DNA from: Akkermansia muciniphila
GTDB taxonomy: Bacteria; Verrucomicrobiota; Verrucomicrobiia; Limisphaerales; JADLHS01
Length of the DNA: 56,853 nt
Assembly (NCBI GenBank): GCA_945882065.1
Contig: CAMCWI010000001.1
Location: 1 to 56,853, forward strand
Direction: 5' to 3'
Numbering within the stretch: the first letter of the stretch is position 1; every line of letters begins with the position of its first letter. The notes beneath the pieces were generated by a model. It was not told the DNA's origin, ran no database searches, and saw only the letters and a program-made list of their open reading frames with translations. The position numbers and the translations under genes were made by a program. Shown one piece after another: positions 27,139 to 56,085 of this stretch.

Positions 27139-29751
27139 TCAGTGCTTGAAGTTGGCCGTGTCTGATTTCGCGGCTGATTCAATGTAGGCGAGCAAATCGA
27201 GTATCTCCTCCGTCGTCAGGTTGTTCAACAGTCCGGTCGGCATCGGCGACAACTTGGACGGCGTGCGGCTGGCGATGTCGGCGATGCGGACTTCTTCCAG
27301 CGATTCAGCCGAGGTCGGGTTTGGCATGACTACCAGTCTCTCAGCGTTCTCGTCTATGATTCGACCTGAAACAGATTCCCCGTCCTTTTTCACGATGTTG
27401 AAGTGAATGTATTGATCAGAGACGACCTTCGAGGGTTCGATCATGGAATCCAGAATGTCTCGAAGGGTGTACTTGCTGGAGGCAGCGGCGAGTTCCGGTC
27501 CGACCGAGCCGCCGGAATTGCCGATGCGGTGACAGACGATGCACTGGGCATCATTGTAAGCCGCCTTGCCGCTTTCAAAGTCACGACCCGATTTGACCTC
27601 TCCCAATCGCGCTTCCAAATCAGCCACGGTCCATTCCTTGACGAACTTCCGGTCCTTGGCAGGCTTCCACGGCGGCGCACCGATCCGTTCTTCGATTAAC
27701 AGCTTCAGCGCGGCCTGTTCCGGCGGACTCAGCGTGGTGATGGCATCTTTCCGGATGTTGATCATGAATTTGGGGTAACTCGCGCCATCGGCGTAATCGC
27801 GATCGGCCTCCTTGAACCATTGCAACAATTTCGCAGGGTGTCTGGCGTCAAGATTGTCCTGCTTGCGCAATTGCGTGAACCACGCGAAATACTTGCGCCG
27901 TTGATCCAGCGTCCAGCCGGTCTTCAAATTGCGAAGGTGATAAATATAGTGAGTCTGATCTTCCAGTGTCCGAGCCTTGGCCACCAGATCCAGACACTTG
28001 GCGGCGATGCCTGGGGCTTCGAGATAAATCAAAATCTGGCAAAGCTCCCGGTTCACATTATCGCTCTTCGTCGGAAACATCGCGCCGAGTTTTTCCGTGG
28101 TGATCCGCACCAGTTCGTCATCGGGACGGCCTTGACGGGAGTAACTGACCTGAATGATACGCAACTTTTCCAACTGCTGCGGCTCAGGCAGCGATTGCAG
28201 CGGGAATCTCCGCAGCGCGTGCAACAAATCGTGTTGCGTCTCCTTGCCGCCGCAACGTGCCAGAGCCATCAGAGCGGTCAAACCACCCTGCGTGTCCGAC
28301 TCCGCCAGCGCGCGCTCTTTCCACGAGGCGACCGGCTGACACTCGATGGCGACTCGCGCCGCGAAACGGATGAAGCGGTCGGAACTTTGCAGATGCGGCC
28401 AAGCAAAATCCACGGCGCGCGAATCCTCTTTGCCGTGGAACGTCTCGAGCTTTTTCCGCAGGTCGCGGGCTTTCGCGGCGGCTTTGTCAGGCTTCGGCAC
28501 GTTGCTCAATTCACGTTTCAACGCCCTGTCTCCCGTGAAACTGACACGGTACAATCCAGCCTGCGTGCCGCGACCGCCCGTGATGAAATACATCGCGCCG
28601 TCCTTGCCGAACTCAAGATCGGTCACGTTGAGCGGTTTGCCTTTCACGAAGGATTCATAATCGCCAGTGTAGGTGGCGCCCTGCTCGCGAAGATTGACCG
28701 CCAGTATCCGACCGTACGTCCAGTCCATGATAAACAGCGCCTGTTGATACTTTTTTGGAAAGTTGCTCTTCGTGCCGAACTTCACACCCGTCGGACAGCC
28801 GACACCGATGTCCACCGCCGTGGGCAGACTGTCCGGGTAATAATCCGGCCACACACCCGCGCCAGAGCGCCAGCCATAGTCGCCGCCGATGACATTGTGA
28901 GTAACGCGCGTCGGACGATACCACGGCATTCCCCAATCCCATTCCATGTCGCTGTCAAAAGTGAACATCTCGCCGTTCGCGCTGAAATCGAAATCGTAGG
29001 AGTTGCGGAAGCCGCCGTACACCAATTCCCATTTCTTGCCATCCTTGTCGGTTCGCAACACATAACCGCCGGGGGCGAGAATGCCGGTCGCGTGACCGTT
29101 ACCGTCCCACTGGCGCGGCAACACATGATCCTCTCGATAATTCCGGAGCTGTGAATTGGGCGAAACATCTTCCGGCACTTTGGTGTGGTTGCCGTTCATC
29201 ACGTAAATCATTCCATCCGGCCCTGCTGCCAACGCGTGGTACCCATGCTCGCCTTCGCCAGCAAACTTCTTGAGAAAGTGAACTTCGTTGGTGTCGAACT
29301 GGTCGTTATGGTTTTCATCAATCAGCCGATAAAGCCCCGTGCCATTCGGTCCGTGAGAATTGACGTAGAGACTGTCGTGCGCCCAACACATGCCCATGGC
29401 CTGTTTGACCTTGGCAGGAATTGTTTCCACTTTATCAACCTGCCCCGCCTTCGTGAGCGTGATGCGCAGCAACGGGCGTTCATCCTGTTGCGGCGAGATG
29501 ATCAGACGCCCTTTATTGTCCACCGTCATGGAAATCCACGAGCCTTCGTTCGTCGCGGCGGAGCGCAGGAGTTCCACCGTGAAGCCCGCAGGCACGGTGA
29601 GAGTTTCAGCGGCTGTTGCGGGTCCGGATGTCGTGACCTTTTTGGGTTTCTTCACATTCGGTTGAGCGTGCAGAGGGCAAATCCCAAGCATCAGAATGAA
29701 GGCCAGGGAAAACAGCCGGAAACAGGATGGAGTCAGTCGAGTTTTTTTCAT
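27139..29751 (-). CDS. PVC-type putative membrane-bound dehydrogenase with a beta-propeller, HEAT repeats and a C-terminal mono-heme cytochrome c domain
   Basis: ATG at 29751 gives MKKTRLTPSCFRLFSLAFILMLGICPLHA. The N-terminal FTVELLRSAATNEGSWISMTVDNKGRLIISPQ matches the Pirellula/Verrucomicrobium dehydrogenase N-domain. CIVCH is encoded at 27529-27543. The tail SLMPTGLLNNLTTEEILDLLAYI is typical of the family heme domain. Confidence 0.85.
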   Translation of the reverse strand: MKKTRLTPSCFRLFSLAFILMLGICPLHAQPNVKKPKKVTTSGPATAAETLTVPAGFTVELLRSAATNEGSWISMTVDNKGRLIISPQQDERPLLRITLTKAGQVDKVETIPAKVKQAMGMCWAHDSLYVNSHGPNGTGLYRLIDENHNDQFDTNEVHFLKKFAGEGEHGYHALAAGPDGMIYVMNGNHTKVPEDVSPNSQLRNYREDHVLPRQWDGNGHATGILAPGGYVLRTDKDGKKWELVYGGFRNSYDFDFSANGEMFTFDSDMEWDWGMPWYRPTRVTHNVIGGDYGWRSGAGVWPDYYPDSLPTAVDIGVGCPTGVKFGTKSNFPKKYQQALFIMDWTYGRILAVNLREQGATYTGDYESFVKGKPLNVTDLEFGKDGAMYFITGGRGTQAGLYRVSFTGDRALKRELSNVPKPDKAAAKARDLRKKLETFHGKEDSRAVDFAWPHLQSSDRFIRFAARVAIECQPVASWKERALAESDTQGGLTALMALARCGGKETQHDLLHALRRFPLQSLPEPQQLEKLRIIQVSYSRQGRPDDELVRITTEKLGAMFPTKSDNVNRELCQILIYLEAPGIAAKCLDLVAKARTLEDQTHYIYHLRNLKTGWTLDQRRKYFAWFTQLRKQDNLDARHPAKLLQWFKEADRDYADGASYPKFMINIRKDAITTLSPPEQAALKLLIEERIGAPPWKPAKDRKFVKEWTVADLEARLGEVKSGRDFESGKAAYNDAQCIVCHRIGNSGGSVGPELAAASSKYTLRDILDSMIEPSKVVSDQYIHFNIVKKDGESVSGRIIDENAERLVVMPNPTSAESLEEVRIADIASRTPSKLSPMPTGLLNNLTTEEILDLLAYIESAAKSDTANFKH

Positions 29752-29820
29752 TGGAGATGGGCAGACGTGTTGATCGGATGAATGATTCATTTCTAAAAGT
29801 CGGTTCTATTTTTTGATGTT

Positions 29821-30947: not shown

Positions 30948-31952
30948 TTACGGCGCGAGTCCCGTGGGCGGACGAACCGCCGCCTGATCCGCGGGCAAAT
31001 CCACAGCACTCAGAGGAGGGATTGTCACCTTCCCGGTTGCCGCCCATTCCGCGCCGCGAGTCAACGTGTTTTGGAAACCACGACCATGCATCGCTTTCGG
31101 ACTGTGGCCAAGAGCGGTGTGAAACACGCGCCCTTTTCCGAAGTTGATTGCCATGAGCAACGGTTCGTTCTCCTTTGTCTGAGGCGAAAATGCCGTCGCG
31201 ATCACGGTGAGATTCTTGGCCGGGCCGCGCAACTTGGAATAAAGTTCGTCGCCGGGATGCATCCACGTCAACGGCAGCCCCTTCACAATCGGATGCTCCG
31301 GGTCACGGGTTTCCATGAGGAAAGGATTTTGCGGGCCATGACTGCCGCCCGGTCCGGGCGTGTTGTCGAACACAACTTTTCCATCGCGATAACGGATCAT
31401 CGGGCCAGACTTCTCACTGCGACCGCCCCAGCCGCCCACGCCGATCATCTCATTATACTCAGGCCATTCGGGAAAGGAATTATCCGCCGCGTGAACCGGA
31501 ACGTAGCCGCCACCCTGCCGGACAAACTTCACAAAATCCGCACGCACCTCTTCCGGCCAAGCCTCGCCATTGTAATTGCCAATGATGACGTCCACCTGGT
31601 CGAACTTGGGTCGTGATTCATTCCACTTCGTGGCTTTTGATTTTTCAGATTCGGACGCATCTCTTTTCCATTTTGCCATCGCCTCGGCGTGGGCGGTTTG
31701 CTGCTCGGCCGTCAACGGGCCCTTGGGCGTTTGCGGCTGACGCGGCACGGCGGACGGAGCAGTGAAAACCTTGACGGTGAATCGTCCGGAGTCTTCCAGA
31801 ATCCACTTGAGCACCGGCGTCGTGTTTTTCCAGTCGTGATTGTTCTGTCCGTCAATGATGAGAGCGCGGAGCGGTTCAGCAGCATTGATGGCAATGCCGG
31901 TCAGCAGCAGGGCGACCGGCACGAGGAAGAATTTCTTGGCTTGGAGTTTCAT
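30948..31952 (-). CDS. Secreted ThuA-domain protein
   Basis: ATG at 31952 gives MKLQAKKFFLVPVALLLTGIAINA. LRALIIDGQNNHDW, GGGYVPVHAADNSF, GDELYSKL and HTALGH are present. Confidence 0.8.
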   Translation of the reverse strand: MKLQAKKFFLVPVALLLTGIAINAAEPLRALIIDGQNNHDWKNTTPVLKWILEDSGRFTVKVFTAPSAVPRQPQTPKGPLTAEQQTAHAEAMAKWKRDASESEKSKATKWNESRPKFDQVDVIIGNYNGEAWPEEVRADFVKFVRQGGGYVPVHAADNSFPEWPEYNEMIGVGGWGGRSEKSGPMIRYRDGKVVFDNTPGPGGSHGPQNPFLMETRDPEHPIVKGLPLTWMHPGDELYSKLRGPAKNLTVIATAFSPQTKENEPLLMAINFGKGRVFHTALGHSPKAMHGRGFQNTLTRGAEWAATGKVTIPPLSAVDLPADQAAVRPPTGLAP

Positions 31953-31980
31953 AAGTTCAGTTGTGGGTGGGGACGACGAT

Positions 31981-33435
31981 TCAGTTTGTTGAAGGAACAG
32001 ACAATTCGAAGTTTGACATGCCACCGTCGGCAGTCACTTCAACTTCCCGTTCCATTCCGGCGGAAGCGGCTTTGCGGTGGTAAGCTGCGATCTTGTATTT
32101 GCCCGGCGGCACGTCCTTGATTGTGAACGATCCGTCCCTGGCCGTGACTGCGAAATAAGGATGATCAACAACCGTCACCCAGGCGAACATCCACGGATGG
32201 ACGTCGCATTTGAATTTCAAGAAGTTTTCAGCCCTAGGAAAAGACAGGCTGAGATCGGGCGACCTCTCCATCATCCCAACGTTTCCTTCGTTGTTTCCTG
32301 TAACGATCGGCAGCGAATGAACATTGTGCATCAACGGGTCTGAATTCTTGACTGTGATCTTCTGACCGGTTTGAACCGCAAGAATCTGCGGCACGTATTG
32401 ACAGTTTTTTTGATCGAGGACAGCCGGTGCTGCGGATGCGCCTTTGGATTTGCCATCCATCCCCCTGAGCATGACTACGACGTTCGCGAGTTCGCCCTTC
32501 GCCCCAACAACCCAGTGATGTGTGGTTGGAGGCGTCGTGTGAAATTTCCCACACGACACATCAGCGACCAGCAAGTCATTAACGGATTCGGCAGGTGGAG
32601 TGCCTTTGAGTGTAACTTTGCCCGTGATCATTCCGGTTGACGTGCGTTGTGAAACTGAGGCTGTGTCTTTTCCCGATGAGGTGACTTCTGAAACTGAAGC
32701 CAGCTTGCGAACCCACACATTTCTGAAGCGCACGGGGTTGCCGTGGTCTTGGAGATAAAGCGGTCCTTTCTCGACGATTCCACGCAACGGCGACGCCGCC
32801 GTGCCTTCGCCGGTGACGGGCACGTTGTCCTGGATCAATACGCCGTTGTGAAACACCGTGAACGAACCCGCTTTCACAGTGCCGTCCACCCGCTTCTTCG
32901 GCGGATGAAAGATGATGTCGTAGGTCTGCCACTCGCCCGGCTTACGACACGCGTTTACCAGCGGTACGTGGTGACCATACATCGCGCCACACTGGCCGTT
33001 CGGGTAGGTCTTGTTCTCGTAGTTGTCAAGAATCTGAATTTCGTAGCGGCCCATCAGATAAACGCCGCTGTTGCCGCGTCCCTGATCGTTCCCTTTCACA
33101 TTGGACGGCGCGGCAAATTCAACATGCACCTGGCAGTCCGCGAATTCTTCCTTTGAAAAAATCCCGCCGGGTGGCGTGCTTTCCATCACGCCGTTGTCAA
33201 TCTTCCAACCCGGCTCGGGTTTGCGCTCGCCGCGGAACATGGAGAGGTCTTTGCCGTCAAACAGGACGATCGCATCCGATGGTGCTTTGCCCGGCGCACC
33301 AGGATCAATCACCGTCGGCTGCGGGTCTTCCTTCTTGGGCGCGGTCACCTTGTTAGTTTGCGCGGTGGCGATGGAGACTGCGGAAACGAACAACAGACAT
33401 AGTGTAAGAATTTTTTGTATCATGGAGGGAGGCAT
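31981..33435 (-). CDS. Secreted DUF1080 domain fused to a C-terminal cupredoxin/plastocyanin-like domain
   Basis: DUF1080: VLFDGKDLSMFRG...GNSGVYLMGRYEIQILD...LYLQDHGNPVRFRNVWVRKL. C-terminus: KNCQYVPQILAVQTGQKITVKNSDPLMHNVH...FKCDVHPWMFAWVTVVDHPYFAVT...GKYKIAAYH. The start is the ATG at 33435 or at 33423. Confidence 0.78.
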   Translation of the reverse strand: MPPSMIQKILTLCLLFVSAVSIATAQTNKVTAPKKEDPQPTVIDPGAPGKAPSDAIVLFDGKDLSMFRGERKPEPGWKIDNGVMESTPPGGIFSKEEFADCQVHVEFAAPSNVKGNDQGRGNSGVYLMGRYEIQILDNYENKTYPNGQCGAMYGHHVPLVNACRKPGEWQTYDIIFHPPKKRVDGTVKAGSFTVFHNGVLIQDNVPVTGEGTAASPLRGIVEKGPLYLQDHGNPVRFRNVWVRKLASVSEVTSSGKDTASVSQRTSTGMITGKVTLKGTPPAESVNDLLVADVSCGKFHTTPPTTHHWVVGAKGELANVVVMLRGMDGKSKGASAAPAVLDQKNCQYVPQILAVQTGQKITVKNSDPLMHNVHSLPIVTGNNEGNVGMMERSPDLSLSFPRAENFLKFKCDVHPWMFAWVTVVDHPYFAVTARDGSFTIKDVPPGKYKIAAYHRKAASAGMEREVEVTADGGMSNFELSVPSTN

Positions 33436-44316: not shown

Positions 44317-44707
44317 AGTTTTGTTACGGCTCTTGTTAATCGAATTCACGCTCCAAGTCCACCCTCACAAACAAAGCCTAGGGAGACCGCCGTATTCAGA
44401 TGTTTCTTTGCTCGCGGTTATTCAGGAATTCACCTGAGCGTTTTCAGAGACACGCACATATCTCTTACTTCTCGCTAAATTCTAAAGCGACACAGTGCAT
44501 TTCAATCGCGATGAGATCGTTTTTAGGGCGGAACATCTAGCTGCACAAATTGGAAACTTTTTCTACTGGCTTTGGTGAACACTCCACACGACAGACGGTG
44601 TATCAAATCCTTTGAGACCTTCATCACCCTAAAACACTGCTCAGTTCACTAACCGCACCGCAACCTGTCAAACAAGACTTGTTGAAGCGGGGGAAAATGG
44701 ATTCCCT

Positions 44708-48332: not shown

Positions 48333-49541
48333 TCAACGCGCGCCAAGATTCTTCAACAGCGCATGGGCACACGCTTCAGCAAAGACTGGATCATTGATCG
48401 CGCAGTCCATCTCCTTCACTTCGATGTCTGTGCGCAATCCAGCTTTCAGCGCGGCGCAAAGCGCGACGTCTGCGGCTGAATCATGAAACGCCCCACCCGG
48501 CGCGCCGATCATGCTGCCGCCGCGCAATGGCAGCAGCACCGTCACTGGGCCGGTGGAGAGGTTGAGTTTTTCGGCCAAGATTGTTCCAAGTTGTTTGCAC
48601 TCCTCGGGCGTCGTGCGCATCAACGTCACTTGCGGGTTGTGCTGATAAAAATTTCTCCCAGCAAATTTCGTGGGCACGGTTTCAGGTGAACCGAAATTCA
48701 CCATGTCGAGACAACCGGTGGAAACCACTGCTGGCACTCCGCACCGTGCGGCAGCTTCGAGTCGCGTCGGGCCAGCGTTCAACACGCCACCGACCAATTC
48801 GTCCGCCCACTCCGTCGTCGTCACATCGAGCACACCGGCTACGAGGCCAGTCTCGATGAGAGATTCCATCGTGCGTCCGCCAGTTCCGGTAGCAGCGAAC
48901 ACGATGACTTCGTATCCGGCGGCTTCGAGGATTTTCCGTGCGTGTTCGATGCACATCGTGGTGTTCCCAAACTGGCTGGCCACGATGATGGGTTTGTCGG
49001 TCGCAGCAGTCACGGGCATCTCCACCATGCCGCAGATGGCACCCGCAGCAGGAGTGAGTAACTGACGCGAAATCCGGTTGAGTCCCGCCACGTCCACGAT
49101 GCTTGGGAACATCACTATGTCCTTCACGCCGACGTAGGGCGCAACGTTCCCGCTCGCCAACGTGGAAACCATCAATTTGGGAAACCCGATTGGCAACGCG
49201 CGCATCGCTGCCGTGGCAATGGCAGTGCCACCGCCGCCGCCTAGCGAGATCACGCCATCAATCTTTTTTTCCTCCGCCAGCTTTGCGAGAATGATCGGCG
49301 CGCCTTGCGACATCGCGGTCACCGACTCACCGCGATCCCGCTTTGCAATCAAAGTAGCGAGGTCAACGCCCGCCGCTTGGGCAACTTCGCTCCGCGTGAT
49401 GTCGGGTTTAAGTTTTGGATCTTCCAACGTGCCGACATCAATGATGAGAACCTTGTGACCTCGCTGGCGAATGAGATCAGCCACAAAACCATGCTCCACG
49501 CCTTTCGTGTCCATCGTTCCGAGAATCGCGATCGTTGGCAT
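48333..49541 (-). CDS. UPF0261 / Tm-1-like ATP-binding domain protein
   Basis: MPTIAILGTMDTKGVEHGFVADLIRQRGHKVLIIDVG, GVISLGGGGGTAIATAAMRALPIGFPKLMVST and VVFAATGTGGRTME are characteristic of the family. Confidence 0.9.
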   Translation of the reverse strand: MPTIAILGTMDTKGVEHGFVADLIRQRGHKVLIIDVGTLEDPKLKPDITRSEVAQAAGVDLATLIAKRDRGESVTAMSQGAPIILAKLAEEKKIDGVISLGGGGGTAIATAAMRALPIGFPKLMVSTLASGNVAPYVGVKDIVMFPSIVDVAGLNRISRQLLTPAAGAICGMVEMPVTAATDKPIIVASQFGNTTMCIEHARKILEAAGYEVIVFAATGTGGRTMESLIETGLVAGVLDVTTTEWADELVGGVLNAGPTRLEAAARCGVPAVVSTGCLDMVNFGSPETVPTKFAGRNFYQHNPQVTLMRTTPEECKQLGTILAEKLNLSTGPVTVLLPLRGGSMIGAPGGAFHDSAADVALCAALKAGLRTDIEVKEMDCAINDPVFAEACAHALLKNLGAR

Positions 49542-49563: not shown

Positions 49564-52500
49564 TTATTTCACTTCTTTACCCGCAGCCCAGAAGACGGAG
49601 TTTCGCAAGAGTCTGATGTAAGCCGCGTGTTCGTGCGCCGCAGCATCGTGACCAAGCGTGATTCCCACCACCCTGCCCTTTGATTGCTCGACGGTGAAGA
49701 CTTGCGGGAAGTCCTTGTTTTTCGCCTGCGAGTAAGCAGTGGCGAGAACTTTCACGGGTGCGCCCTGTGTATCGGGTTCAAAATAATAAAGCTCGTCCTT
49801 GAGCGTGAACTTTGCCGGCACGCCACGAAGGATCGGATGTTTCGGCTCGATCACTTTCACTTCGAACTCGCCATACTTATCGTGACTCCGTGAACCGCCA
49901 CCAATGAGGTCGCGGTTATACTCAGGCCAATCTTTCCAGTTATACCATAGTCCCGGATGCAGTCCGACGATTCCCTTGCCACTCTTCAGATGTTTGAAGA
50001 TCGCTTCCTTTGTCGCCGCGTTTGTGAACGGCTTGTTGTTGCTGATGATCAAGACATCCACACCAGCGATGACACCAGAAAGATCACCTGTGGGCGTGGT
50101 GTAATTGGCAGTGATGCCGCCCGCCGCGTTCAACGTCTTCACATCTTCCACATTGAACCACCGTTCGAAGTCGTGACTCGATCCGCCGCCGACGATCAAT
50201 GTTTTGATCCCAGCGTTCCATTTGAAGGATGGTGCGGGCGCGACACTCGCTCCGCCGGAAGTCGGGGCGGAACTTGAACCCCCTTCGCCAACCTCTGCCG
50301 TGATGCTGACGAACGTCGGTGCGTACTGGTTGCCGTAACTGGAGATCGTCAATTTCTCGACCATGCCGCGCTTGGTCAGCGGTTTCGCGAAATAGCGGAC
50401 TTGTTTCCCGCCGTTCATGATTTTGTCCAGATTAGCGAGCGCTTCCGAACCGGGCACGTCCACATGCGTTATGTAGTCAGCGATCTCAACTCCGTTTCGC
50501 AGGACGATCTCTTCGGTTGGACCTCCTGCGAAATGAACGATGATCTTTGCGACTGGATCATTCACTTTTCCGCCCGGGAACCCCCAACCCGCAATGCCAC
50601 CCAGGAAATGCAGTTTGGTGACCGGCAACCCCACCTTGACCTCGACTTCCTTCGGATAACTTTGTGCCAGACCAATGCCGCCACGCAGCACGATCATATT
50701 CTTGCCATCAGCCATGCGCTGCGGATTCACCGCATCAAACGGCACATCACGATGCTTGAGCGTGCCCCACTTCTTGAAGCGTATCGATTCATCCCGTGAC
50801 TCGGCGGATTGGTAGAGGCCGCGTGAACTGTTCGCAGTGAACGCGCCCGCGAGATCCAGAATGCGGTAACGCAAATCGTCCGCACAGATATACGCCAGCA
50901 GGTCGCGCAGGTTTTCCGCACCGAGTTGTTCCAATCCATCCGGCATCAATGATCGGCTGTTACTGCGCCGCGACTGGATGTTGTCCTTGCGGACTTCGAT
51001 CTCGCCGGTCTGATTTCGGATCACGACCGAGGTGTTGTTCTCTCGCAGAACAATGCCGTCGTAGCTGAGATCATCCTTCGTCTCGATGCTCACGGTATAA
51101 AAGTTCGGCTCGACGACGCGGTTCGGATCAATGATGTGAACAAGCAACTCTTCGGGTCCGTGAGCGCCCATGCCCGTGAGATTCGGCGCAAAGTCCGCGC
51201 CCTCGGATTTATACTTGTGACAGACGGCGCAGTTCTGCGTGAAGATCTTTGCACCGTTGCCCAGGTTTCCGGCCTTGCTGACCTCGGGTTTTAACTTCGT
51301 GATCAGGCTGTCTTTCTCCTGCTGTTGAGGCCCGCGCAGTTCCGCGATCACTTTGCTCGCGTGATCCGCCACAGCAGCATCAGAGTGCGTGCGCAGGCGA
51401 TACAAATTCGCGAGGCCAAGCATCGCGGGATCAATCTTCCGATCCGCCAGCGCCTTCACCAGCGCTTCCGACCAGTCACTGCGACGGATCAATTGTCCAA
51501 AAGCAACCTCGCGCAGATCGAACGACAGCTTTGGCAATGCGACCAGAAGAGTCTGCCCCACGGCGGCATCACCCGAGTCGCCGAGCGCTTCGATCAATTT
51601 TTTCTGCAACGCCGGACTCGCATCACTGCCCACCACCGCAGAAACCGCAGGTACGATGCTGGGATCGAGCTTGGCAACACCCAGCAGGTTCGCCGCGATT
51701 TGAGCGCGCTCATCATCGGAAACGGATTTGTCTGCGAACCGCGCTTCGGCTTTGACGATGGCGGGTTTCATCGCGTCGCCGACTTCGCCGGCGAAATTCC
51801 AACGAACAATCAATGGCAGCACTGCGCTGGCGGTGGCGTCCGAAGCGAGCAATTGTTTCAATGCTGTGCCGAGTGATGCGTCTGCGGTCGGCTTGATTTC
51901 TTGCTTCAGATTCGCAGCGAGCGATTGCATCGCGAAAACCTTGAGCGAATCCGCGCCAGAGGGTTTTCCAGCAATGGTCACCACTAACGAACGAGCCGCA
52001 TCCGGATTGTTCTGTTGTGCGACCTGCCGAGACAACTGTGAAATCATCCCCGCCATCGAGGAGGCATCTTTGGCGTCCATCGCCGCGCTGACGAACAACA
52101 AAGGTTTCTTGGCAGTGATGGCGAGCGCGGCAGTTTCGAGATAAGGACTCTTCAGCGATGGCCATGCCGCGACGATGGCTTCAGCGAATTCACGATTCGG
52201 TGTAAGCGTTTCGCAGGCGATCAATGCCGCCATTCGGACGCGTTGATCTGGGTCATTGACTAAAGCCCGGACCAATTCCATCGGCGGTTCAACGTTGGAG
52301 TTGTCCTGCTCCGCGCCTATCCGCATGGCGTTCTTGCGGACGACAGCGTCCTTGTCACTGGATGCAGCCACCAATGTCTCTGGCTTGAGCAGATTCAAAT
52401 TGTGCAACACCCACAGAGCCTGCATCCGGCCATAAGCGGTTTTGGCCGATGCTGCTTCGCTTTCCAACGTGGTCGCGTAATCACGCCCTGCCCCTTCACT

Positions 52501-54675
52501 CAACAAACGATTCGCCGTTGTGCGCACCCAACCGTTCGGATGGTCGAGCATCGCCACGAGTTTTGCTGCCTTTTTGGAATTCAGATCAAACGGCGGCAGC
52601 GCGTGGGCTTCCTTGTGCTGGATACGGTAAACACGCGTGAAGTGATGATCACGATCAGGACGCGATGCGGCGTTGCGCGCGCCATGCGCCGGGCCGCGCG
52701 TGTCGTTGTGGACAGCGATCTGGTTATACATGTCCACCAGATACAACGCGCCATCCGGGCCGACGCGGCTGTGGATCGGCTTGAACCAGTAATCGGTGCT
52801 CGTCAGGAAGTGCGTCTCCTTACGGGCTTCTTCGCGGCGACCTTTGTACGTCACGCCGTTCGGATCGAGGAATTCGTGGTGCATCAACCACACGGTCGGC
52901 TCATGGAGGAAGAACGACCATGATGGCCCTTGCCACTTGGTCGGCCACGCGCCGCCGTCATAAATCGTCGCACCCGCCGCGGCTGTCCACGCTCCAACCC
53001 AGTCAATCTGCACATACGGCTGACGGGCTTCTTTGCGCCCGGGAAAAACCTTATTCTCTTCCATGATCGGATTCGCCGAGCGGACTCCAGCCACGCCGGA
53101 GCGGCTGATGACTTTGTCCGGCATAACGACGTGAAGGATGGGCTGACCGCAGGTGGCTGTGCTGAAAAATATCTCGCCGTCCGGCGCGATTTCACAGCCC
53201 CAAGTGTTGCACGCACCGGAAGAAATTTGCTCCAACGCAGATCCGTCAGGACGGAAGCGGTAAATGCCGGCTGATATACGGCCAAATTTCTTCGTGCCAT
53301 CGCCCGATGAAACATCACCGGCGCTATATCCGACTGAGCCGTACACCCAGCCGTCCGGCCCCCAACGCAGATTGCTCGTCACCGAATGCGTGTCGCCAGT
53401 TCCCCAGCCGGTTGATAGCACTTGAAACTTGTCCGCCTTGCCATCTCCGTCCGTATCGCGAATCCAAAGAATGTCCGGTGCTTGCGTAACAATGGCGCCA
53501 TCCTTGTACAACACCACAGAAGTCGCCAATTCCAATCCATCTGCAAAGACGGTTTTCTTGTCCATCACGCCGTCGCCATTCGTATCTTCCAAAATTGAGA
53601 TGCGATCTCGGTTTGCGCGCTTCTCTTTGCCACCGATAGGGAACTCGTTTGGATTCCGCAAACGCCACGGAGTGATCTTGCCGTCGTTCTTGTTGATGTC
53701 GCGCCCGCCAGGATACTCGGGCGTCTCGACGACCCACATGCGGCCTTTCGTATCCCATTCGACGGACATGATTTTCTCAGCGAGCTTTTCATCGGCGACG
53801 AGAGAGATGTTGAACTCAGGATGGAGATTAAATGTTTTGAGTGCGTCTTTCGCGGGAAGCGGTCCGCCGGGCGGATAGAGCAACGAATCGAGTTCTTCCT
53901 TCTTGCAGAATTCATCAACGCTGGTGCGCTTGCCGGCCCATGCGATGCCGCGCATCAAGATCGCGCGATATTGAGGACTGTTGAACACATCAAAATCGTG
54001 GCCGGGCAAACTCACGAAGGCCCGATAGGGTGTTGCGCCGCCTGAAATAGTTTTCTCATAAGTCCAAACCTGGGGGGCGATGACGAAAACGTTGTGAAAG
54101 CTCGTGGCCAATACGCCGATGTCCGGCGCGAGATCCATGTCGTAATAAATTTCGTCCTTCCAATCGAAGTTTGAGATGCCCTTGCTGATGGGGTGATCTT
54201 GATCGACCCAGCAAATGCCGACGTTGCCCTCGAACCACTTCGTCGCTTTGTCTTTGGGCACGTCCGCTGAAGGCCAGCGCCATGCGCCACCGATGGTGGA
54301 CTTGCACCATTCATGTTGATCACCGCTCACCACGCCATCGTGCAAAACCACCAAGCCACCACCGCGTTTGAGGAATTTTTCCAGATCGGCTCGCTGCGTC
54401 CCGGCGATCTTCATCCCGTCCGCCGCGTAGATAATCATCACGTCGGTTTTCTCCAGCTGCTCGGGCTCGGGGAAATCGAGATCGCCCGTGACTTGCATTC
54501 CGCGATCGCCGAGCAGTGTCGTCCACTCCTTGAGAAAGCGGGGATGATCGTGCTGGTTTGGCCCGTGAGTTTTGACGCCACCACGGATGAAGACGCGCAG
54601 AGGTTCAGCCGCAGTCGCTGAAAGCGATGCCACCAAGAGTGCCGTAACGACCAATAAGTTGATTGTCTTTTTCAT
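49564..54675 (-). CDS. Giant secreted fusion of a ThuA domain, a PVC-type dehydrogenase beta-propeller, HEAT repeats, a mono-heme cytochrome c, an unassigned beta-domain and a second ThuA domain
   Basis: ATG at 54675 gives MKKTINLLVVTALLVASLSATAAEP. An upstream ATG at 54732 would add 19 aa before the signal. ThuA-N: LRVFIRGGVKTHGPNQHDH...VVLHDG...LPGHDFDVF. Propeller: FNISLVADEKLAEKIMSVEWDTKGRMWVVETPEYPGG. Heme domain: CAVCH is encoded at 51217-51231, followed by SLMPDGLEQLGAENLRDLLAYI. ThuA-C: IKTLIVGGGSSHDFERW...ELYYFEP...TLGHDAAAHEH. Confidence 0.85.
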   Translation of the reverse strand: MKKTINLLVVTALLVASLSATAAEPLRVFIRGGVKTHGPNQHDHPRFLKEWTTLLGDRGMQVTGDLDFPEPEQLEKTDVMIIYAADGMKIAGTQRADLEKFLKRGGGLVVLHDGVVSGDQHEWCKSTIGGAWRWPSADVPKDKATKWFEGNVGICWVDQDHPISKGISNFDWKDEIYYDMDLAPDIGVLATSFHNVFVIAPQVWTYEKTISGGATPYRAFVSLPGHDFDVFNSPQYRAILMRGIAWAGKRTSVDEFCKKEELDSLLYPPGGPLPAKDALKTFNLHPEFNISLVADEKLAEKIMSVEWDTKGRMWVVETPEYPGGRDINKNDGKITPWRLRNPNEFPIGGKEKRANRDRISILEDTNGDGVMDKKTVFADGLELATSVVLYKDGAIVTQAPDILWIRDTDGDGKADKFQVLSTGWGTGDTHSVTSNLRWGPDGWVYGSVGYSAGDVSSGDGTKKFGRISAGIYRFRPDGSALEQISSGACNTWGCEIAPDGEIFFSTATCGQPILHVVMPDKVISRSGVAGVRSANPIMEENKVFPGRKEARQPYVQIDWVGAWTAAAGATIYDGGAWPTKWQGPSWSFFLHEPTVWLMHHEFLDPNGVTYKGRREEARKETHFLTSTDYWFKPIHSRVGPDGALYLVDMYNQIAVHNDTRGPAHGARNAASRPDRDHHFTRVYRIQHKEAHALPPFDLNSKKAAKLVAMLDHPNGWVRTTANRLLSEGAGRDYATTLESEAASAKTAYGRMQALWVLHNLNLLKPETLVAASSDKDAVVRKNAMRIGAEQDNSNVEPPMELVRALVNDPDQRVRMAALIACETLTPNREFAEAIVAAWPSLKSPYLETAALAITAKKPLLFVSAAMDAKDASSMAGMISQLSRQVAQQNNPDAARSLVVTIAGKPSGADSLKVFAMQSLAANLKQEIKPTADASLGTALKQLLASDATASAVLPLIVRWNFAGEVGDAMKPAIVKAEARFADKSVSDDERAQIAANLLGVAKLDPSIVPAVSAVVGSDASPALQKKLIEALGDSGDAAVGQTLLVALPKLSFDLREVAFGQLIRRSDWSEALVKALADRKIDPAMLGLANLYRLRTHSDAAVADHASKVIAELRGPQQQEKDSLITKLKPEVSKAGNLGNGAKIFTQNCAVCHKYKSEGADFAPNLTGMGAHGPEELLVHIIDPNRVVEPNFYTVSIETKDDLSYDGIVLRENNTSVVIRNQTGEIEVRKDNIQSRRSNSRSLMPDGLEQLGAENLRDLLAYICADDLRYRILDLAGAFTANSSRGLYQSAESRDESIRFKKWGTLKHRDVPFDAVNPQRMADGKNMIVLRGGIGLAQSYPKEVEVKVGLPVTKLHFLGGIAGWGFPGGKVNDPVAKIIVHFAGGPTEEIVLRNGVEIADYITHVDVPGSEALANLDKIMNGGKQVRYFAKPLTKRGMVEKLTISSYGNQYAPTFVSITAEVGEGGSSSAPTSGGASVAPAPSFKWNAGIKTLIVGGGSSHDFERWFNVEDVKTLNAAGGITANYTTPTGDLSGVIAGVDVLIISNNKPFTNAATKEAIFKHLKSGKGIVGLHPGLWYNWKDWPEYNRDLIGGGSRSHDKYGEFEVKVIEPKHPILRGVPAKFTLKDELYYFEPDTQGAPVKVLATAYSQAKNKDFPQVFTVEQSKGRVVGITLGHDAAAHEHAAYIRLLRNSVFWAAGKEVK

Positions 54676-54744
54676 TTGGAAATTGGGAAAACGATTCGTT
54701 AGATTGTGCAAAGAAACCTCACTGACTGCCATAACTCATTCGAG

Positions 54745-55179
54745 TTACGGTTTGCAGACAGGCAGATCCAGTTTCTGACGGAGTGAAGCCCACGGCTCCT
54801 GAGTAGAAACATCCACGATCCCAGGCTCGGCGGCTTTGGCGGGCGATAGAATCGCCAGAAACACGAGCCGCTCGCGATGCGGATTGAAAGTGCCATGCAC
54901 TTCCCCCTTGGGAACCAGCACCATTTCGCCAGGCCCGAGGATGCGATGCTCTTTGCCGATCCACTGTTCAGCGCGACCGGACAAAATATAAATAATCTCT
55001 TCGCGCGTCGGATGCGAATGGAACGGATGCGAGAAGCCCGGCTCCATGTTCGCGCGGACCATCATCAAATCCTGATTCGGAACGATGTCGGAGCGGCAAA
55101 GCCATTCTTCAATCGTCCATGGCGATTGGAAATCCACCTTCTCGGCGGCGGTGACGAAGCGGCGATTTTCGATGCTCAT
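54745..55179 (-). CDS. Cupin-domain protein
   Basis: GFSHPFHSHPTREEIIYILSGRA...GEMVLVPKGEVHGTFN are the two cupin motifs. The product is 144 aa and has no signal peptide. Confidence 0.8.
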   Translation of the reverse strand: MSIENRRFVTAAEKVDFQSPWTIEEWLCRSDIVPNQDLMMVRANMEPGFSHPFHSHPTREEIIYILSGRAEQWIGKEHRILGPGEMVLVPKGEVHGTFNPHRERLVFLAILSPAKAAEPGIVDVSTQEPWASLRQKLDLPVCKP

Positions 55180-55191
55180 AGCTGGATGCGT

Positions 55192-56085
55192 TTATTTTTT
55201 CTTCGCTTTGCCGAACGACTTTGCTGATGGCGCTTTCAACTTCTTGAAATCACGAGTCAGATTCGTCAACGACGCCTCCACACCCATGCGTTCCAAGGAA
55301 CTTGCGCCCACGAAGCCAACTGCATCGGTGTTCTTCAACACTCGATCCGCATCCGCCGGTGTATTGATCGGCCCGCCGTGAGCGAGGAAGAAAATGTCTT
55401 TCCGCACCCGGCTTGCCGCATCAATGATTTCCTGCGTACGTTTGATCGTGAAGTCCCAAGTCACGACGGCTTTCTTCACTCCGATCGAGCCTCCGACCGT
55501 GGTGCCGACATGCGCGATGATGGCGTCTGCACCGACCTTTGCCATCTCAACTGCTTCCTCCGGCGTAGCGACATAGACTACCGAGAACAAATCCATCTTC
55601 CGCGCCAGCGCGACCATCTCAAATTCCTTCTTCACGCTCATGCCGGTCTCTTCCAACACACCGCGAAAGTGACCATCCACGATGGTGTGAGTGGGAAAAT
55701 TATTCACGCCGCTGAAACCCATCTCCTTCACCTTGCCGAGCCAGTGCCACATGCGGCGGCGCGGGTCTGTCGCGTGAACACCACAGATCACAGGCACTTC
55801 CTCGACCACGGGTAACACTTCGTATTCGCCAATCTCCATCGCGATGGCGTTGGCGTCGCCATAAGACATAAGCCCGCACGTAGAGCCATGCCCCATCATT
55901 CGATAGCGCCCGGAATTATAAATGATGATGAGGTCAGCACCACCGCGTTCGATGAATTTGGCGCTGATGCCAGTGCCGGCACCGGCAGCGATGATGGCGT
56001 CGCCCTTCTTGATGGTGCTCATCAAGCGGTCGCGCACTTCTTTACGTGTATAAGGATTACCTTTTCCAGTCCAAGGGTTCGGCAT
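55192..56085 (-). CDS. Phosphoenolpyruvate hydrolase-like TIM-barrel protein (TIM-barrel signal transduction protein, Tm-1 C-terminal-domain homologue)
   Basis: AAGAGTGISAKFIERGGADLIIIYNSGRYRMMGHGS, YGDANAI, GFSGVNNFPTHTIVDGHFRGVLEETGMS and GADAIIAHVGTTVGGSIG are family-defining strings. Confidence 0.88.
   Translation of the reverse strand: MPNPWTGKGNPYTRKEVRDRLMSTIKKGDAIIAAGAGTGISAKFIERGGADLIIIYNSGRYRMMGHGSTCGLMSYGDANAIAMEIGEYEVLPVVEEVPVICGVHATDPRRRMWHWLGKVKEMGFSGVNNFPTHTIVDGHFRGVLEETGMSVKKEFEMVALARKMDLFSVVYVATPEEAVEMAKVGADAIIAHVGTTVGGSIGVKKAVVTWDFTIKRTQEIIDAASRVRKDIFFLAHGGPINTPADADRVLKNTDAVGFVGASSLERMGVEASLTNLTRDFKKLKAPSAKSFGKAKKK

What the first reader, a model, noticed from the sequence alone, without database searches (positions are those of the whole stretch)
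49564..54675. Rosetta-stone fusion: two ThuA domains welded to a propeller-HEAT-cytochrome c dehydrogenase
The same window carries the split version. The propeller-HEAT-cytochrome c protein (27139-29751) has no ThuA domain, and a separate secreted ThuA gene lies at 30948-31952.

In the giant both ends are ThuA domains (LRVFIRGGVKTHGPNQHDH... and ...IKTLIVGGGSSHDFERW). They bracket the propeller, the HEAT repeats, one CAVCH heme site (51217-51231) and an unassigned beta-domain of about 190 aa (about 50290-50860).

ThuA is only known as the partner of the ThuB oxidoreductase in 3-ketotrehalose formation, and its own chemistry is unclear. A covalent fusion to a heme c electron outlet argues that ThuA domains take part directly in periplasmic redox chemistry on glycosides.
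Basis: partly seen in the sequence, partly recalled or inferred. Interest (0 to 1): 0.65.

Follow-up and report, generated by a model that had tools for sequence, protein, structure and literature searches.

The report
ThuA-decorated periplasmic heme-propeller protein of Verrucomicrobia
The 1,700-residue gene is real and is conserved in dozens of freshwater and soil Verrucomicrobia; it is a secreted propeller/heme c protein carrying two ThuA domains and an unnamed sugar-module-like domain, probably an enzyme that works on glycosides, but nothing shows that the ThuA domains themselves do redox chemistry.

Summary
ORF 49564-54732 (-), probable start 54675, encodes signal peptide, ThuA, DUF7133 propeller, HEAT solenoid, His/Met cytochrome c, an un-Pfam'd beta-sandwich, a flexible linker and a second ThuA. 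Both ThuA domains score three times the Pfam cut-off and fold like solved ThuA-like proteins.

It is not an assembly chimera. At least 120 protein clusters and 80 GTDB genomes (all Verrucomicrobiota) carry the same colinear architecture. Contigs from four lake metagenomes cross every domain junction.

The Rosetta-stone reading is partly supported. The in-window "split" genes are only distant paralogues. However, they and their orthologues sit in clusters with ThuA, DUF1080, GFO/IDH/MocA and TIM-barrel genes, which links ThuA to heme-propeller proteins independently of the fusion. Complete-looking relatives carry two, one or no ThuA domains, and the C-terminal one hangs on a disordered tether, so ThuA looks like an accessory module.

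No redox cofactor is evident in ThuA. The propeller resembles PQQ sugar dehydrogenases only at fold level. The one assayed relative of the core was reported as a beta-galactosidase.

Verdict: an undescribed architectural variant of the known, uncharacterised "PVC-type heme-binding CxxCH" family. Interest is moderate.

The parts
49564..54732 (-). Whole ORF, 1722 aa plus stop. The probable true start is the ATG at 54675 (aa 20).
   Evidence: ORF; residues 1-19 are gapped in 77% of 117 homologues; full-length colinear homologues.
54607..54675 (-). Sec-type signal peptide (MKKTINLLVVTALLVASLSATAA). It has no lipobox Cys, so the protein is exported to the periplasm.
   Evidence: Read from the sequence. 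Complete representatives of the family start with similar hydrophobic N-termini. No signal-peptide predictor was run.
53908..54606 (-). N-terminal ThuA domain (aa ~43-275). Invariant residues include K54 T55 H56, H61 D62 H63, the elbow His131, D193 E194 and G244 H245.
   Evidence: Pfam ThuA 95.3 bits. Foldseek matches 4e5v and 4jqs with TMt 0.62-0.69. Invariants.
53851..53907 (-). Conserved connector (EELDSLLYPPGGP) between N-ThuA and the propeller.
   Evidence: Invariant E280 L281 L284 Y286 P287 G289 G290 P291. The two-domain model has pTM 0.84, which is consistent with fixed packing of the two domains; no PAE or coordinates could be inspected.
52609..53850 (-). DUF7133 / TIGR02604 beta-propeller (aa 295-708) with two DxDxDG-type loops and an invariant DTH449...GPDGW motif.
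   Evidence: Pfam 388 bits and TIGR02604 220 bits. The best propeller matches in the PDB are PQQ sugar dehydrogenases 2ism, 1c9u and 3a9g: E ~1e-8, TMt 0.47-0.63, 12-13% identity.
51286..52602 (-). HEAT/ARM-type alpha-solenoid (aa 711-1149).
   Evidence: Pfam HEAT_2 and HEAT. The profile matches artificial alphaRep HEAT proteins in the PDB. It is the least conserved part, with 0.45-0.65 identity per 25-aa block.
50869..51285 (-). Class-I-like cytochrome c domain with an inserted small beta-unit (TIGR02603).
   Evidence: TIGR02603 96.8 bits. Matches the C-terminal heme domain of Kustd1711 (7zs0), E 2e-12.
51217..51231 (-). CAVCH heme c attachment motif (C1168, C1171, H1172). It is the only CxxCH in the protein.
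   Evidence: The motif is invariant in homologues.
50944..50946 (-). Met1263, the predicted distal heme ligand, in the invariant S-L-M-P motif.
   Evidence: It aligns with M292 of Kustd1711. M292 is one of the distal methionine heme ligands of that protein, the one in its C-terminal domain (PMC11791136).
50287..50868 (-). Unnamed beta-sandwich domain (aa ~1289-1482), about 13 strands. It is a mobile module that always follows the cytochrome domain in this family.
   Evidence: No Pfam or NCBIfam hit. pLDDT is above 90. A profile search finds 635 representatives. The domain also sits at the C-terminus of Ser/Thr kinases alongside RicinB and PA14 domains, and of a GH127.
50221..50286 (-). Gly/Ser/Ala/Pro-rich flexible linker.
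   Evidence: Model-1 residues 334-351 (aa 1483-1500) have pLDDT below 50. It is the least conserved and most gapped block among homologues.
49567..50220 (-). C-terminal ThuA domain (aa ~1505-1722). Invariant residues include H1520 D1521, the elbow His1592, H1617, D1646 E1647, G1694 H1695 D1696 and H1700.
   Evidence: Pfam ThuA 105 bits. Foldseek matches 4e5v, 4jqs and 1t0b with TMt 0.67-0.72. Invariants.
54745..56085 (-). Upstream same-strand neighbours: PEP_hydrolase-like TIM barrel (55192-56085) and cupin (54745-55179). The gaps between genes are 12 bp.
   Evidence: Pfam. The synteny is kept in 18-24 of 80 related loci.
48333..49541 (-). Downstream same-strand neighbour: a UPF0261 (Tm-1-like) protein, 22 bp after the stop codon.
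   Evidence: Pfam. The synteny is kept in 18-20 of 80 loci.
27139..29790 (-). Unfused heme-propeller paralogue (883 aa; probable start 29751).
   Evidence: TIGR02603 93.9 bits; TIGR02604 85.6 bits, below the cut-off. BLASTP to the giant matches only the cytochrome module. It belongs to its own widespread subfamily without ThuA.
30948..32024 (-). Secreted stand-alone ThuA (probable start 31952).
   Evidence: Pfam ThuA 99.5 bits. Signal peptide read from the sequence. 24-25% identity to the giant's ThuA domains.

Best explanation
The gene encodes a Sec-exported, soluble periplasmic multidomain protein. It belongs to the 'PVC-type heme-binding CxxCH protein' family (TIGR02604 propeller, HEAT solenoid, TIGR02603 cytochrome c) and has three added accessory modules: an N-terminal ThuA, an unnamed beta-sandwich and a tethered C-terminal ThuA.

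Most likely mechanism (inferred):
1. The propeller binds a glycoside or sugar and oxidises it.
2. Electrons pass to the single His1172/Met1263 heme c, and from there to a soluble periplasmic acceptor and the respiratory chain.
3. The beta-sandwich, and probably the ThuA domains, bind or further process the carbohydrate substrate or its oxidised product. They do not carry electrons.

Shown: the ORF, the domain identities, the conservation, export (from the sequence), modularity of the ThuA domains, and genomic association with genes of the 3-keto-glycoside type.

Inferred: the substrate class, the direction of electron flow, the propeller's cofactor and the chemical role of ThuA.
For: - Domain calls are far above the curated cut-offs.
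- Fold confirmation for both ThuA domains and the cytochrome domain.
- The predicted distal ligand Met1263 aligns with M292 of Kustd1711, a distal methionine heme ligand there; that protein's hemes have potentials of about +350 mV (PMC11791136).
- The nearest solved propellers are PQQ-dependent glucose and aldose dehydrogenases.
- The architecture is colinear in at least 120 protein clusters and in the best 80 GTDB loci (48-81% identity, all Verrucomicrobiota), apart from a few cut by contig ends. In a 117-sequence alignment of the full-length relatives every domain is conserved, and the ThuA domains (about 0.6-0.75 identity) more so than the HEAT region.
- Contigs of four independent lake metagenomes cross every junction, with no joints.
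- All four ThuA domains of the window share G-x-x-H-D, a His at the nucleophile-elbow position and a C-terminal G-H. All four are exported.
- The window holds a 14-kb same-strand cluster (19618-33531) containing an unfused heme-propeller, two ThuA genes, two DUF1080 genes, a GFO/IDH/MocA gene and two xylose-isomerase-like TIM barrels.
- Two of three orthologous loci of the unfused protein repeat such clusters. One of them has DUF1080, a TIM barrel and ThuA.
- DUF1080 BT2157 cleaves 3-keto-trehalose (PMC8121099). A TIM-barrel enzyme is a 3-keto-glycoside beta-eliminase (PMC10628242). ThuAB makes 3-keto-disaccharides (cited in PMC8121099).
- The beta-sandwich recurs next to RicinB and PA14 domains and on a GH127.
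Against: - No cofactor for the propeller is established. Pfam GSDH does not match even at E<=10. PDB sequence and profile searches find no propeller relative. The fold match is modest (TMt about 0.5-0.6, 12-13% identity) and other six-bladed propellers (lactonases, a lyase) score nearby.
- The only assayed relative of the core, Lac161_ORF7, was reported to hydrolyse lactose after purification from E. coli (PMC5342196). That does not require redox chemistry.
- The giant's own conserved neighbours (cupin, PEP_hydrolase-like, UPF0261) are of unknown function. They are not 3-keto-pathway genes, and the synteny is limited to the closest clade.
- No ligand, metal or activity is known for any ThuA protein in the literature I could search.
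- Relative domain orientation could not be inspected, because no coordinates or PAE were available.
Confidence: 0.5

Rival explanations
1. The ThuA domains, and the beta-sandwich, are non-catalytic accessory modules. They would bind carbohydrate or mediate oligomerisation, and simply target or assemble the heme-propeller enzyme on glycans.
For: - The ThuA-like / GATase1-like fold is the carbohydrate-binding module of Agd3 (PMC7229062).
- The same fold appears as an inner domain of GH42 galactosidases and of a GH112 phosphorylase among the fold matches.
- Complete-looking relatives carry 2, 1 or 0 ThuA domains.
- The C-terminal ThuA sits on a disordered tether.
- The beta-sandwich co-occurs with lectin-type domains.
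Against: - Both ThuA domains keep a constellation of invariant His, Asp and Glu residues that is shared with stand-alone ThuA proteins. This is more typical of a metal or active site than of a binding surface built from aromatic residues.
- Agd3 lacks these conserved residues (PMC7229062).
Confidence: 0.25
2. One reading: the ThuA domains are themselves redox-active and exchange electrons with the fused heme c during periplasmic glycoside oxidation.
For: - Covalent fusion to a cytochrome c is conserved across many genomes.
- ThuA is genetically required, together with the oxidoreductase ThuB, for 3-keto-disaccharide formation (cited in PMC8121099).
- A ThuA-domain gene sits beside a GMC oxidoreductase in a deoxynojirimycin-degradation cluster (PMC11494336).
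- Conserved His clusters could in principle hold a redox metal.
Against: - The ThuA domains contain no CxxCH (the only one is in the cytochrome domain), and Pfam and NCBIfam detect no cofactor domain in them. Flavin- or NAD-binding motifs were not searched for separately.
- The domains are dispensable in sister architectures that keep the propeller and heme.
- The C-terminal ThuA is separated from the heme domain by a 190-aa beta-sandwich and a flexible linker.
- The N-terminal ThuA is separated from the heme domain by the propeller and about 440 aa of solenoid.
Confidence: 0.12
3. The core is a cofactor-independent beta-propeller glycoside hydrolase, as reported for the beta-galactosidase Lac161_ORF7. 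The heme domain would serve sensing, stability or an unrelated role.
For: - Lac161_ORF7, which has the same TIGR02604-HEAT-cytochrome architecture, hydrolysed lactose with Km 1.8 mM (PMC5342196).
- The family is treated as putative beta-propeller glycoside hydrolases in PMC7397252 and PMC5352709.
Against: - A strictly conserved CxxCH and distal Met in a family of this size argues for electron transfer.
- The cosmid complemented S. meliloti but not E. coli.
- The protein was purified from E. coli BL21(DE3)pLysS. From my own knowledge this strain keeps its own lacZ, so carry-over of LacZ is a caveat.
- No glycoside hydrolase catalytic signature was identified in that paper.
Confidence: 0.12
4. 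The ORF is an assembly chimera or mis-join of separate ThuA and heme-propeller genes.
For: None found.
Against: - Colinear architecture, near full length apart from a few contig-end truncations, in 80 independently assembled genomes and at least 120 protein clusters.
- Contigs from four lake-water metagenomes of three studies cross all junctions at even depth, with no joints or indels.
Confidence: 0.01

Closest known systems
PVC-type heme-binding CxxCH proteins (NCBIfam TIGR02604 + TIGR02603; Pfam DUF7133), including Lac161_ORF7 / AGW45552
   Same: The propeller-HEAT-cytochrome c core is the same, and both NCBIfam models score above their curated cut-offs. The family occurs in the PVC superphylum. 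Sources give this protein's close relatives exactly that name.
   Different: The described members and the in-window paralogue have no ThuA and no beta-sandwich. This protein adds ThuA at both ends and the beta-sandwich after the heme domain. Sequence identity to AGW45552 was not tested because the sequence was not at hand.
ThuA of the ThuAB 3-keto-disaccharide system (Sinorhizobium / Agrobacterium)
   Same: Same Pfam family, with the signature residues kept. Same general metabolic setting of sugar oxidation.
   Different: - Classical ThuA is a stand-alone protein encoded next to ThuB (GFO/IDH/MocA) in the thuEFGKAB operon.
- Here the domains are exported and fused to a heme-propeller.
- No ThuB-type gene adjoins the giant.
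- The one GFO/IDH/MocA gene that sits next to a ThuA in the window lacks a signal peptide, while that ThuA has one.
PQQ-dependent soluble sugar dehydrogenases (sGDH 1c9u, TTHA0570 2ism, Pyrobaculum 3a9g, Streptomyces Adh 3das)
   Same: They are the best structural matches to the propeller. The logic is the same: a sugar-oxidising propeller hands electrons to a cytochrome.
   Different: No sequence-level relationship was found: no Pfam GSDH hit and no PDB profile hit. PQQ- and Ca-binding residues were not verified. Whether these bacteria have PQQ is unknown.
Periplasmic glucoside 3-dehydrogenases with a cytochrome c partner (LacABC / G3DH)
   Same: A functional analogy: periplasmic oxidation of glycosides coupled to cytochrome c (as discussed in PMC8121099).
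   Different: The catalytic subunit of those enzymes is an unrelated FAD flavoprotein. They are separate subunits rather than one polypeptide, and they have no ThuA.
Kustd1711 diheme cytochrome c (7zs0)
   Same: The cytochrome domain aligns with its C-terminal heme domain, including CxxCH, the inserted beta-unit and the distal Met.
   Different: Kustd1711 is a free diheme electron carrier of an anammox bacterium. Here there is one heme domain embedded in a 1,700-aa enzyme.
Agd3 CBM87 and GH42 domain B (ThuA-like / GATase1-like accessory domains)
   Same: The same fold is used as an accessory domain in carbohydrate-active enzymes (fold hits).
   Different: Those domains lack the conserved His/Asp set that the giant's ThuA domains share with true ThuA proteins (PMC7229062).

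Membership tests
ThuA (Pfam PF06283) | Profile score above the curated gathering threshold (33.4 bits) for each terminal domain. | tested here: met
   N-terminal domain 95.3 bits, C-terminal domain 105 bits when scanned separately.
ThuA (Pfam PF06283) | ThuA-like (class I glutamine-amidotransferase-like) fold. | tested here: met
   C-terminal domain against 4e5v, 4jqs and 1t0b: TMt 0.67-0.72, E down to 3e-14. N-terminal domain against 4e5v and 4jqs: TMt 0.62-0.69.
ThuA (Pfam PF06283) | Signature residues shared with stand-alone ThuA proteins: G-x-x-H-D after strand 1, His at the nucleophile-elbow position, and a C-terminal G-H. | tested here: met
   The residues are invariant across the four ThuA domains of the window and across 117 homologues. 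The N-terminal domain lacks the S-x-S-H histidine that the other three have.
ThuAB system | An adjacent ThuB-type GFO/IDH/MocA oxidoreductase partner. | tested here: not met
   The giant's neighbours are a cupin, a PEP_hydrolase-like protein and UPF0261. The neighbours that recur in related loci include no ThuB-type gene.
ThuAB system | Formation of 3-keto-disaccharides. | not testable with these tools
   This needs an enzyme assay.
PVC-type heme-binding CxxCH protein (TIGR02604 / TIGR02603) | N-terminal TIGR02604 domain above its cut-off (122.2 bits). | tested here: met
   220 bits. Pfam DUF7133 scores 388 bits.
PVC-type heme-binding CxxCH protein (TIGR02604 / TIGR02603) | TIGR02603 heme-binding domain above its cut-off (68.15 bits), with CxxCH. 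| tested here: met
   96.8 bits. CAVCH at aa 1168-1172. The distal Met aligns to Kustd1711 M292.
PQQ-dependent soluble sugar dehydrogenase (Pfam GSDH PF07995) | Sequence-profile membership. | tested here: not met
   No GSDH hit even at E<=10. No PDB hit to the propeller by phmmer or by profile.
PQQ-dependent soluble sugar dehydrogenase (Pfam GSDH PF07995) | sGDH-type propeller fold. | tested here: inconclusive
   The best propeller matches are 2ism, 1c9u and 3a9g (E about 1e-8, TMt 0.47-0.63). Lactonase- and lyase-type propellers score within two orders of magnitude.
PQQ-dependent soluble sugar dehydrogenase (Pfam GSDH PF07995) | Catalytic His and PQQ/Ca-binding residues; availability of PQQ. 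| not tested
   No residue-level structural alignment or coordinates were available. The invariant DTH449...GPDGW motif recalls the sGDH catalytic-His motif from memory only.
Rosetta-stone (domain-fusion) pair | The fused form is a genuine gene. | tested here: met
Rosetta-stone (domain-fusion) pair | The components exist as separate genes that are the counterparts of the fused domains. | tested here: inconclusive
   Separate genes exist, but they are distant paralogues: 32% identity in the heme module only, and 24-25% identity for ThuA. The unfused protein's own subfamily never carries ThuA among its 120 best relatives.
Rosetta-stone (domain-fusion) pair | Independent evidence that the separate components are functionally linked. 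| tested here: met
   They lie in the same-strand cluster in the window. An orthologous locus, L082, has heme-propeller, DUF1080, TIM barrel and ThuA in a row. L081 has heme-propeller, TIM barrel, GFO and TIM barrel. L083 shows no such cluster.

The most novel reading that the evidence does not exclude
The protein is a self-contained, respiration-coupled machine for cleaving glycosides. In this reading:
1. The propeller oxidises a glycoside hydroxyl and sends the electrons to heme c.
2. The ThuA domains are metal-dependent (His-cluster) catalytic modules that act on the resulting keto-glycoside.

This would assign ThuA its long-missing chemistry. It would also define a third class of periplasmic glycoside oxidoreductase, a propeller-heme type, beside the GFO-type and FAD-type enzymes.
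Probability: 0.2. Interest if true: 0.7.

Novelty: new variant of a known kind. Interest (0 to 1): 0.4.

Why it matters
ThuA is a widespread family (four copies in this 57-kb window alone) whose biochemical role has never been defined. Heme-propeller 'PVC-type' proteins are also uncharacterised; 20 were counted in one planctomycete genome (PMC7397252).

A conserved fusion plus recurrent gene clustering gives a concrete, testable pairing of the two families. It also places both in the oxidative (3-keto) route of glycoside breakdown, which has only recently been recognised.

The family is common in freshwater and soil Verrucomicrobia, which are major polysaccharide degraders. The unnamed beta-sandwich also marks a new module shared with bacterial Ser/Thr kinase sensor regions.

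If the protein turns out to be only a decorated hydrolase, the finding is ordinary modular evolution of a carbohydrate-active enzyme.

Tried and rejected
- Assembly chimera: rejected.
- Naming the beta-sandwich by sequence: Pfam at E<=10, NCBIfam, and PDB phmmer and profile searches all found nothing.
- Naming the beta-sandwich by fold: the three-domain model's Foldseek list was filled by ThuA and cytochrome hits, so no beta-sandwich relatives were visible. I characterised the domain by a profile search and by the architectures of its hits instead.
- Sequence link of the propeller to PQQ dehydrogenases: none.
- Literature on the ThuA-heme-propeller fusion, or on ThuA chemistry: nothing beyond ThuAB genetics and annotation-level mentions.
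- 'The window carries the split version': rejected in the strict sense.
- 'ThuA 22716-23621 plus GFO/IDH/MocA 23600-24742 is a classical ThuAB pair': doubtful, because the ThuA has a signal peptide and the oxidoreductase has none.
- Transcription: only three tiny metatranscriptome contigs (210, 92 and 87 nt) match inside the gene in one run. That is too little to claim expression.
- Whether the ThuA pockets face the propeller or the heme: this could not be answered, because the tools return no coordinates or PAE.
Full report
**Observation.** The window holds a 1722-codon ORF at 49564..54732 on the minus strand. In an alignment of 117 full-length homologues the first 19 residues are mostly gapped. 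It opens a Sec-type signal peptide, MKKTINLLVVTALLVASLSATAA|EP.

Profile searches give the following domains:
- ThuA at aa 73-266: 95.3 bits against a cut-off of 33.4.
- DUF7133 / TIGR02604 propeller at aa 295-708: 388 and 220 bits.
- HEAT repeats.
- TIGR02603 heme domain at aa 1155-1282: 96.8 bits.
- A second ThuA at aa 1530-1716: 105 bits.

The only CxxCH, CAVCH, lies exactly at 51217-51231. Residues ~1289-1482 match no Pfam or NCBIfam model even at E<=10.

**Is it an artefact?** No.
- A search of 5.8 billion proteins returned at least 120 clusters of about 1,700 aa. They cover 95-99% of the query at 55-81% identity and carry the same Pfam set. Sources name them 'PVC-type heme-binding CxxCH protein', 'ThuA domain-containing protein' or 'putative membrane-bound dehydrogenase-like protein'.
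- A scan of one genome per GTDB species found 188 related loci. The best 80 are colinear over essentially the whole protein (48-81% identity), apart from a few cut by contig ends. All come from Verrucomicrobiota MAGs of lakes, rivers, groundwater and soil. Some records are mislabelled 'Bifidobacterium'.
- Logan contigs of four lake-water metagenomes from three studies tile the gene at even depth. They cross the ThuA/propeller, propeller/HEAT, HEAT/cytochrome, cytochrome/beta and beta/ThuA junctions without joints or indels.
- All domains are under purifying selection. The two ThuA domains (about 0.6-0.75 identity per block) are better conserved than the HEAT region (0.45-0.65).

**Anatomy from structure prediction.** The model of aa 1150-1722 has pLDDT 83.8 and pTM 0.46. 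It shows:
- a cytochrome c domain with an inserted small beta-unit;
- a confident beta-sandwich of about 13 strands;
- an 18-residue segment with pLDDT below 50 that matches the Gly/Ser-rich linker;
- a confident alpha/beta domain.

Foldseek matches that last domain to the three solved ThuA-like proteins (4e5v, 4jqs/4pxy, 1t0b; TMt 0.67-0.72). It matches the heme domain to Kustd1711. HMMER aligns the invariant S-L-M1263-P motif with M292 of Kustd1711. M292 is the distal methionine heme ligand of that protein's C-terminal domain, and its hemes have potentials of about +350 mV (PMC11791136). A His1172/Met1263 electron-transfer heme is therefore predicted.

The model of aa 40-720 has pLDDT 84.2 and pTM 0.84. 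The high pTM, together with an invariant connector (EELxxLxYPxGGP), suggests that the N-terminal ThuA is packed rigidly on the propeller. The C-terminal ThuA is tethered. In the PDB the N-terminal domain again matches ThuA-like proteins.

The propeller matches best the PQQ-dependent soluble glucose and aldose dehydrogenases (2ism, 1c9u, 3a9g, 7cdy, 3das) and HHIP, with E about 1e-8, TMt 0.47-0.63 and 12-13% identity. Lactonase- and lyase-type propellers score not far behind. At sequence level there is no link to the GSDH family. 'Dehydrogenase' is therefore a plausible label for the propeller, not a demonstrated one.

**The unassigned domain.** A profile of the beta-sandwich found 635 representatives in a 1.84-billion-protein library clustered at 50% identity. 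I scanned the best 149 with HMMs built from the giant's own domains. Many of them are fragments. In heme-propeller relatives long enough to judge, the domain directly follows the cytochrome domain; P0122 carries a second copy.

The domain also ends proteins of unrelated kinds:
- Nine of the ten examined are Ser/Thr protein kinases, with one to three copies of the domain. Two of them also carry Ricin-B lectin domains and one a PA14 domain.
- The tenth is a GH127 beta-L-arabinofuranosidase.

This is the distribution expected of a mobile extracytoplasmic ligand-binding module, probably glycan-binding. It has no database name.

**Fused versus split.** The representatives that begin with a Met and a signal-peptide-like N-terminus fall into three architectures:
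- ThuA-propeller-HEAT-cytochrome-beta-ThuA: about 1,640-1,720 aa, at least 9 representatives.
- ThuA-propeller-HEAT-cytochrome-beta, ending at the beta-sandwich: about 1,410-1,510 aa, about 10 representatives.
- Propeller-HEAT-cytochrome-beta without ThuA: about 1,140-1,190 aa, 2 representatives.

ThuA is thus an optional module, present in 0, 1 or 2 copies.

The in-window 'split' genes are not the unfused orthologues. The 883-aa protein matches the giant by BLASTP only in the heme module (32% over 140 aa). The secreted ThuA is 24-25% identical to either terminal domain, and the two terminal domains are 31% identical to each other. The 883-aa protein belongs to its own large verrucomicrobial subfamily of 870-1050 aa. 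None of its 120 best members has ThuA.

**Independent link between ThuA and heme-propeller proteins.** The window carries a 14-kb same-strand cluster from 19618 to 33531, in this order:
- SASA esterase fused to DUF1080
- TIM barrel
- ThuA
- GFO/IDH/MocA oxidoreductase
- TIM barrel
- a 421-aa protein of unknown family
- the unfused heme-propeller
- an APH-family kinase
- ThuA
- DUF1080

I examined three loci of orthologues of the unfused protein:
- One repeats heme-propeller, the 421-aa protein, TIM barrel, GFO, TIM barrel (L081).
- One has heme-propeller, DUF1080, TIM barrel, ThuA (L082).
- One shows nothing of the kind (L083).

These partner families are the known parts of the oxidative route of glycoside breakdown:
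- ThuAB forms 3-keto-disaccharides, and the DUF1080 protein BT2157 cleaves 3-keto-trehalose (PMC8121099).
- A xylose-isomerase-like TIM barrel is a 3-keto-glycoside beta-eliminase (PMC10628242).

All four ThuA domains of the window are predicted to be exported. The GFO/IDH/MocA gene next to one of them has no signal peptide. In this organism ThuA therefore works in the periplasm, where the heme-propeller proteins also are.

The giant's own conserved neighbours are different. PEP_hydrolase-like, cupin and UPF0261 flank it at gaps of 12-22 bp, and in ten loci an upstream multi-pass membrane protein (not domain-scanned, possibly a transporter) is added. The synteny holds only in the 18-24 closest of the 80 loci.

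**What it most likely does.** I commit to a periplasmic enzyme that oxidises glycosides or sugars. The propeller acts on the carbohydrate. The single His/Met heme c carries electrons out to a soluble acceptor. The beta-sandwich and the ThuA domains bind or further convert the substrate or its product.

The ThuA domains keep an invariant set of His, Asp and Glu residues. This includes a His at the position of the amidotransferase nucleophile and a C-terminal G-H, both shared with stand-alone ThuA proteins. That pattern looks more like a metal or active site than a lectin surface.

- the ThuA domains contain no CxxCH and Pfam and NCBIfam detect no cofactor domain in them;
- the domains are dispensable in sister architectures;
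- they sit far from the heme domain along the chain.

The same fold is a carbohydrate-binding module in Agd3 (PMC7229062) and an inner domain of GH42 and GH112 enzymes. A purely accessory role is therefore the main rival.

A second rival comes from the only biochemistry on the family. Lac161_ORF7 has the same propeller-HEAT-cytochrome core and comes from a Chthoniobacter-like cosmid. It hydrolysed lactose with Km 1.8 mM and complemented S. meliloti but not E. coli (PMC5342196). It was purified from E. coli BL21(DE3)pLysS. To my knowledge that strain keeps lacZ, so the result needs confirmation. It is also compatible with an oxidative cleavage that looks like hydrolysis.

**Novelty and verdict.** The family is already in databases under automatic names, and its core family is known but uncharacterised. 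I found no paper describing the ThuA-decorated architecture, the beta-sandwich module or a chemical role for ThuA.

I classify it as a new (undescribed) variant of a known kind. The Rosetta-stone interpretation is partly supported: the functional linkage holds, but direct redox chemistry is not shown and the in-window genes are not the true split counterparts. Interest is moderate. The finding gives a clean experimental handle on two large families of unknown function, but it is also what ordinary modular evolution of carbohydrate-active enzymes looks like.

Noticed in passing
window 19618-33531 (- strand): A 14-kb same-strand cluster of '3-keto-glycoside pathway'-type genes. In order: SASA esterase-DUF1080 (19618-21780), TIM barrel (21802-22650), secreted ThuA (22716-23621), GFO/IDH/MocA (23600-24742), TIM barrel (24772-25809), 421-aa protein with no Pfam hit (25828-27093), heme-propeller (27139-29790), APH-family kinase (29821-31266), secreted ThuA (30948-32024), DUF1080 with a C-terminal beta domain (31981-33531). 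A third DUF1080 gene lies at 43558-44349.
   Followed up: partly
window 50287-50868; proteins P0121, P0130, P0163, P0189, P0199, P0202, P0207, P0217, P0235, P0254: The giant's unassigned beta-sandwich is a mobile domain without any Pfam model (635 representatives). It also forms the C-terminal, presumably extracytoplasmic, end of many bacterial Ser/Thr protein kinases in 1-3 copies, with Ricin-B or PA14 domains in some. It also ends a GH127 arabinofuranosidase.
   Followed up: partly
window 48333-49541 and 54745-56085: UPF0261 and PEP_hydrolase-like genes correspond, from my own recollection, to the two halves of Tm-1-like proteins, which are usually adjacent. Here they are separated by the cupin gene and the 5.2-kb giant. 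The order PEP_hydrolase-cupin-giant-UPF0261 is kept in about 18-24 related verrucomicrobial loci, ten of which add an upstream multi-pass membrane protein that was not domain-scanned. The function of this set is unknown.
   Followed up: partly
window 22716-24742: The ThuA-like gene (Pfam 42 bits) has a signal peptide. The overlapping upstream GFO/IDH/MocA gene starts directly with its Rossmann motif and has no export signal. This adjacent 'ThuA/ThuB-like' pair would therefore sit in different compartments.
   Followed up: partly
window 25828-27093; locus L081 9782-11047: A 421-aa protein with no Pfam hit lies immediately downstream of the unfused heme-propeller gene. A gene of the same length is called at the same position in locus L081, which comes from another sample. 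The sequence similarity of the two was not compared.
   Followed up: no
window 38439-43550 and 788-7469: Typical PVC gene pairs: PSCyt1-PSCyt2-PSD1 (1213 aa) with DUF1501 (486 aa), and a 1695-aa protein with TSP3 repeats and DUF1800 followed by a 508-aa ORF that was not scanned. These fit a verrucomicrobial or planctomycete origin of the window.
   Followed up: no
window 29821-31266 versus 30948-32024: The mechanically listed APH-kinase ORF (GTG at 31266) overlaps the ThuA gene by 319 bp. Its Pfam domain starts only at aa 134, so the real start is probably well downstream.
   Followed up: no
loci L004, L005, L008, L019, L056, L061: Several GTDB records carrying full-length homologues are titled 'uncultured Bifidobacterium sp.' or 'Bifidobacteriaceae'. 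Their closest relatives among the other loci are titled Verrucomicrobiota, so the names look like labelling errors in the source records.
   Followed up: no
window 50041-50165 and 52759-52888: Logan contigs of two lake metagenomes split into alternative short unitigs here, each with 5 differing bases. This indicates co-existing strain variants of the gene. The cluster representative P0001 also differs from the window protein at a few residues.
   Followed up: no
window 53197-53406 and 53862-54011: Three short contigs of one freshwater metatranscriptome (run X22) match the gene with no mismatches: 53197-53406 (210 nt), 53862-53953 (92 nt) and 53925-54011 (87 nt). This is a faint hint of transcription and is too sparse to count as evidence.
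   Followed up: partly
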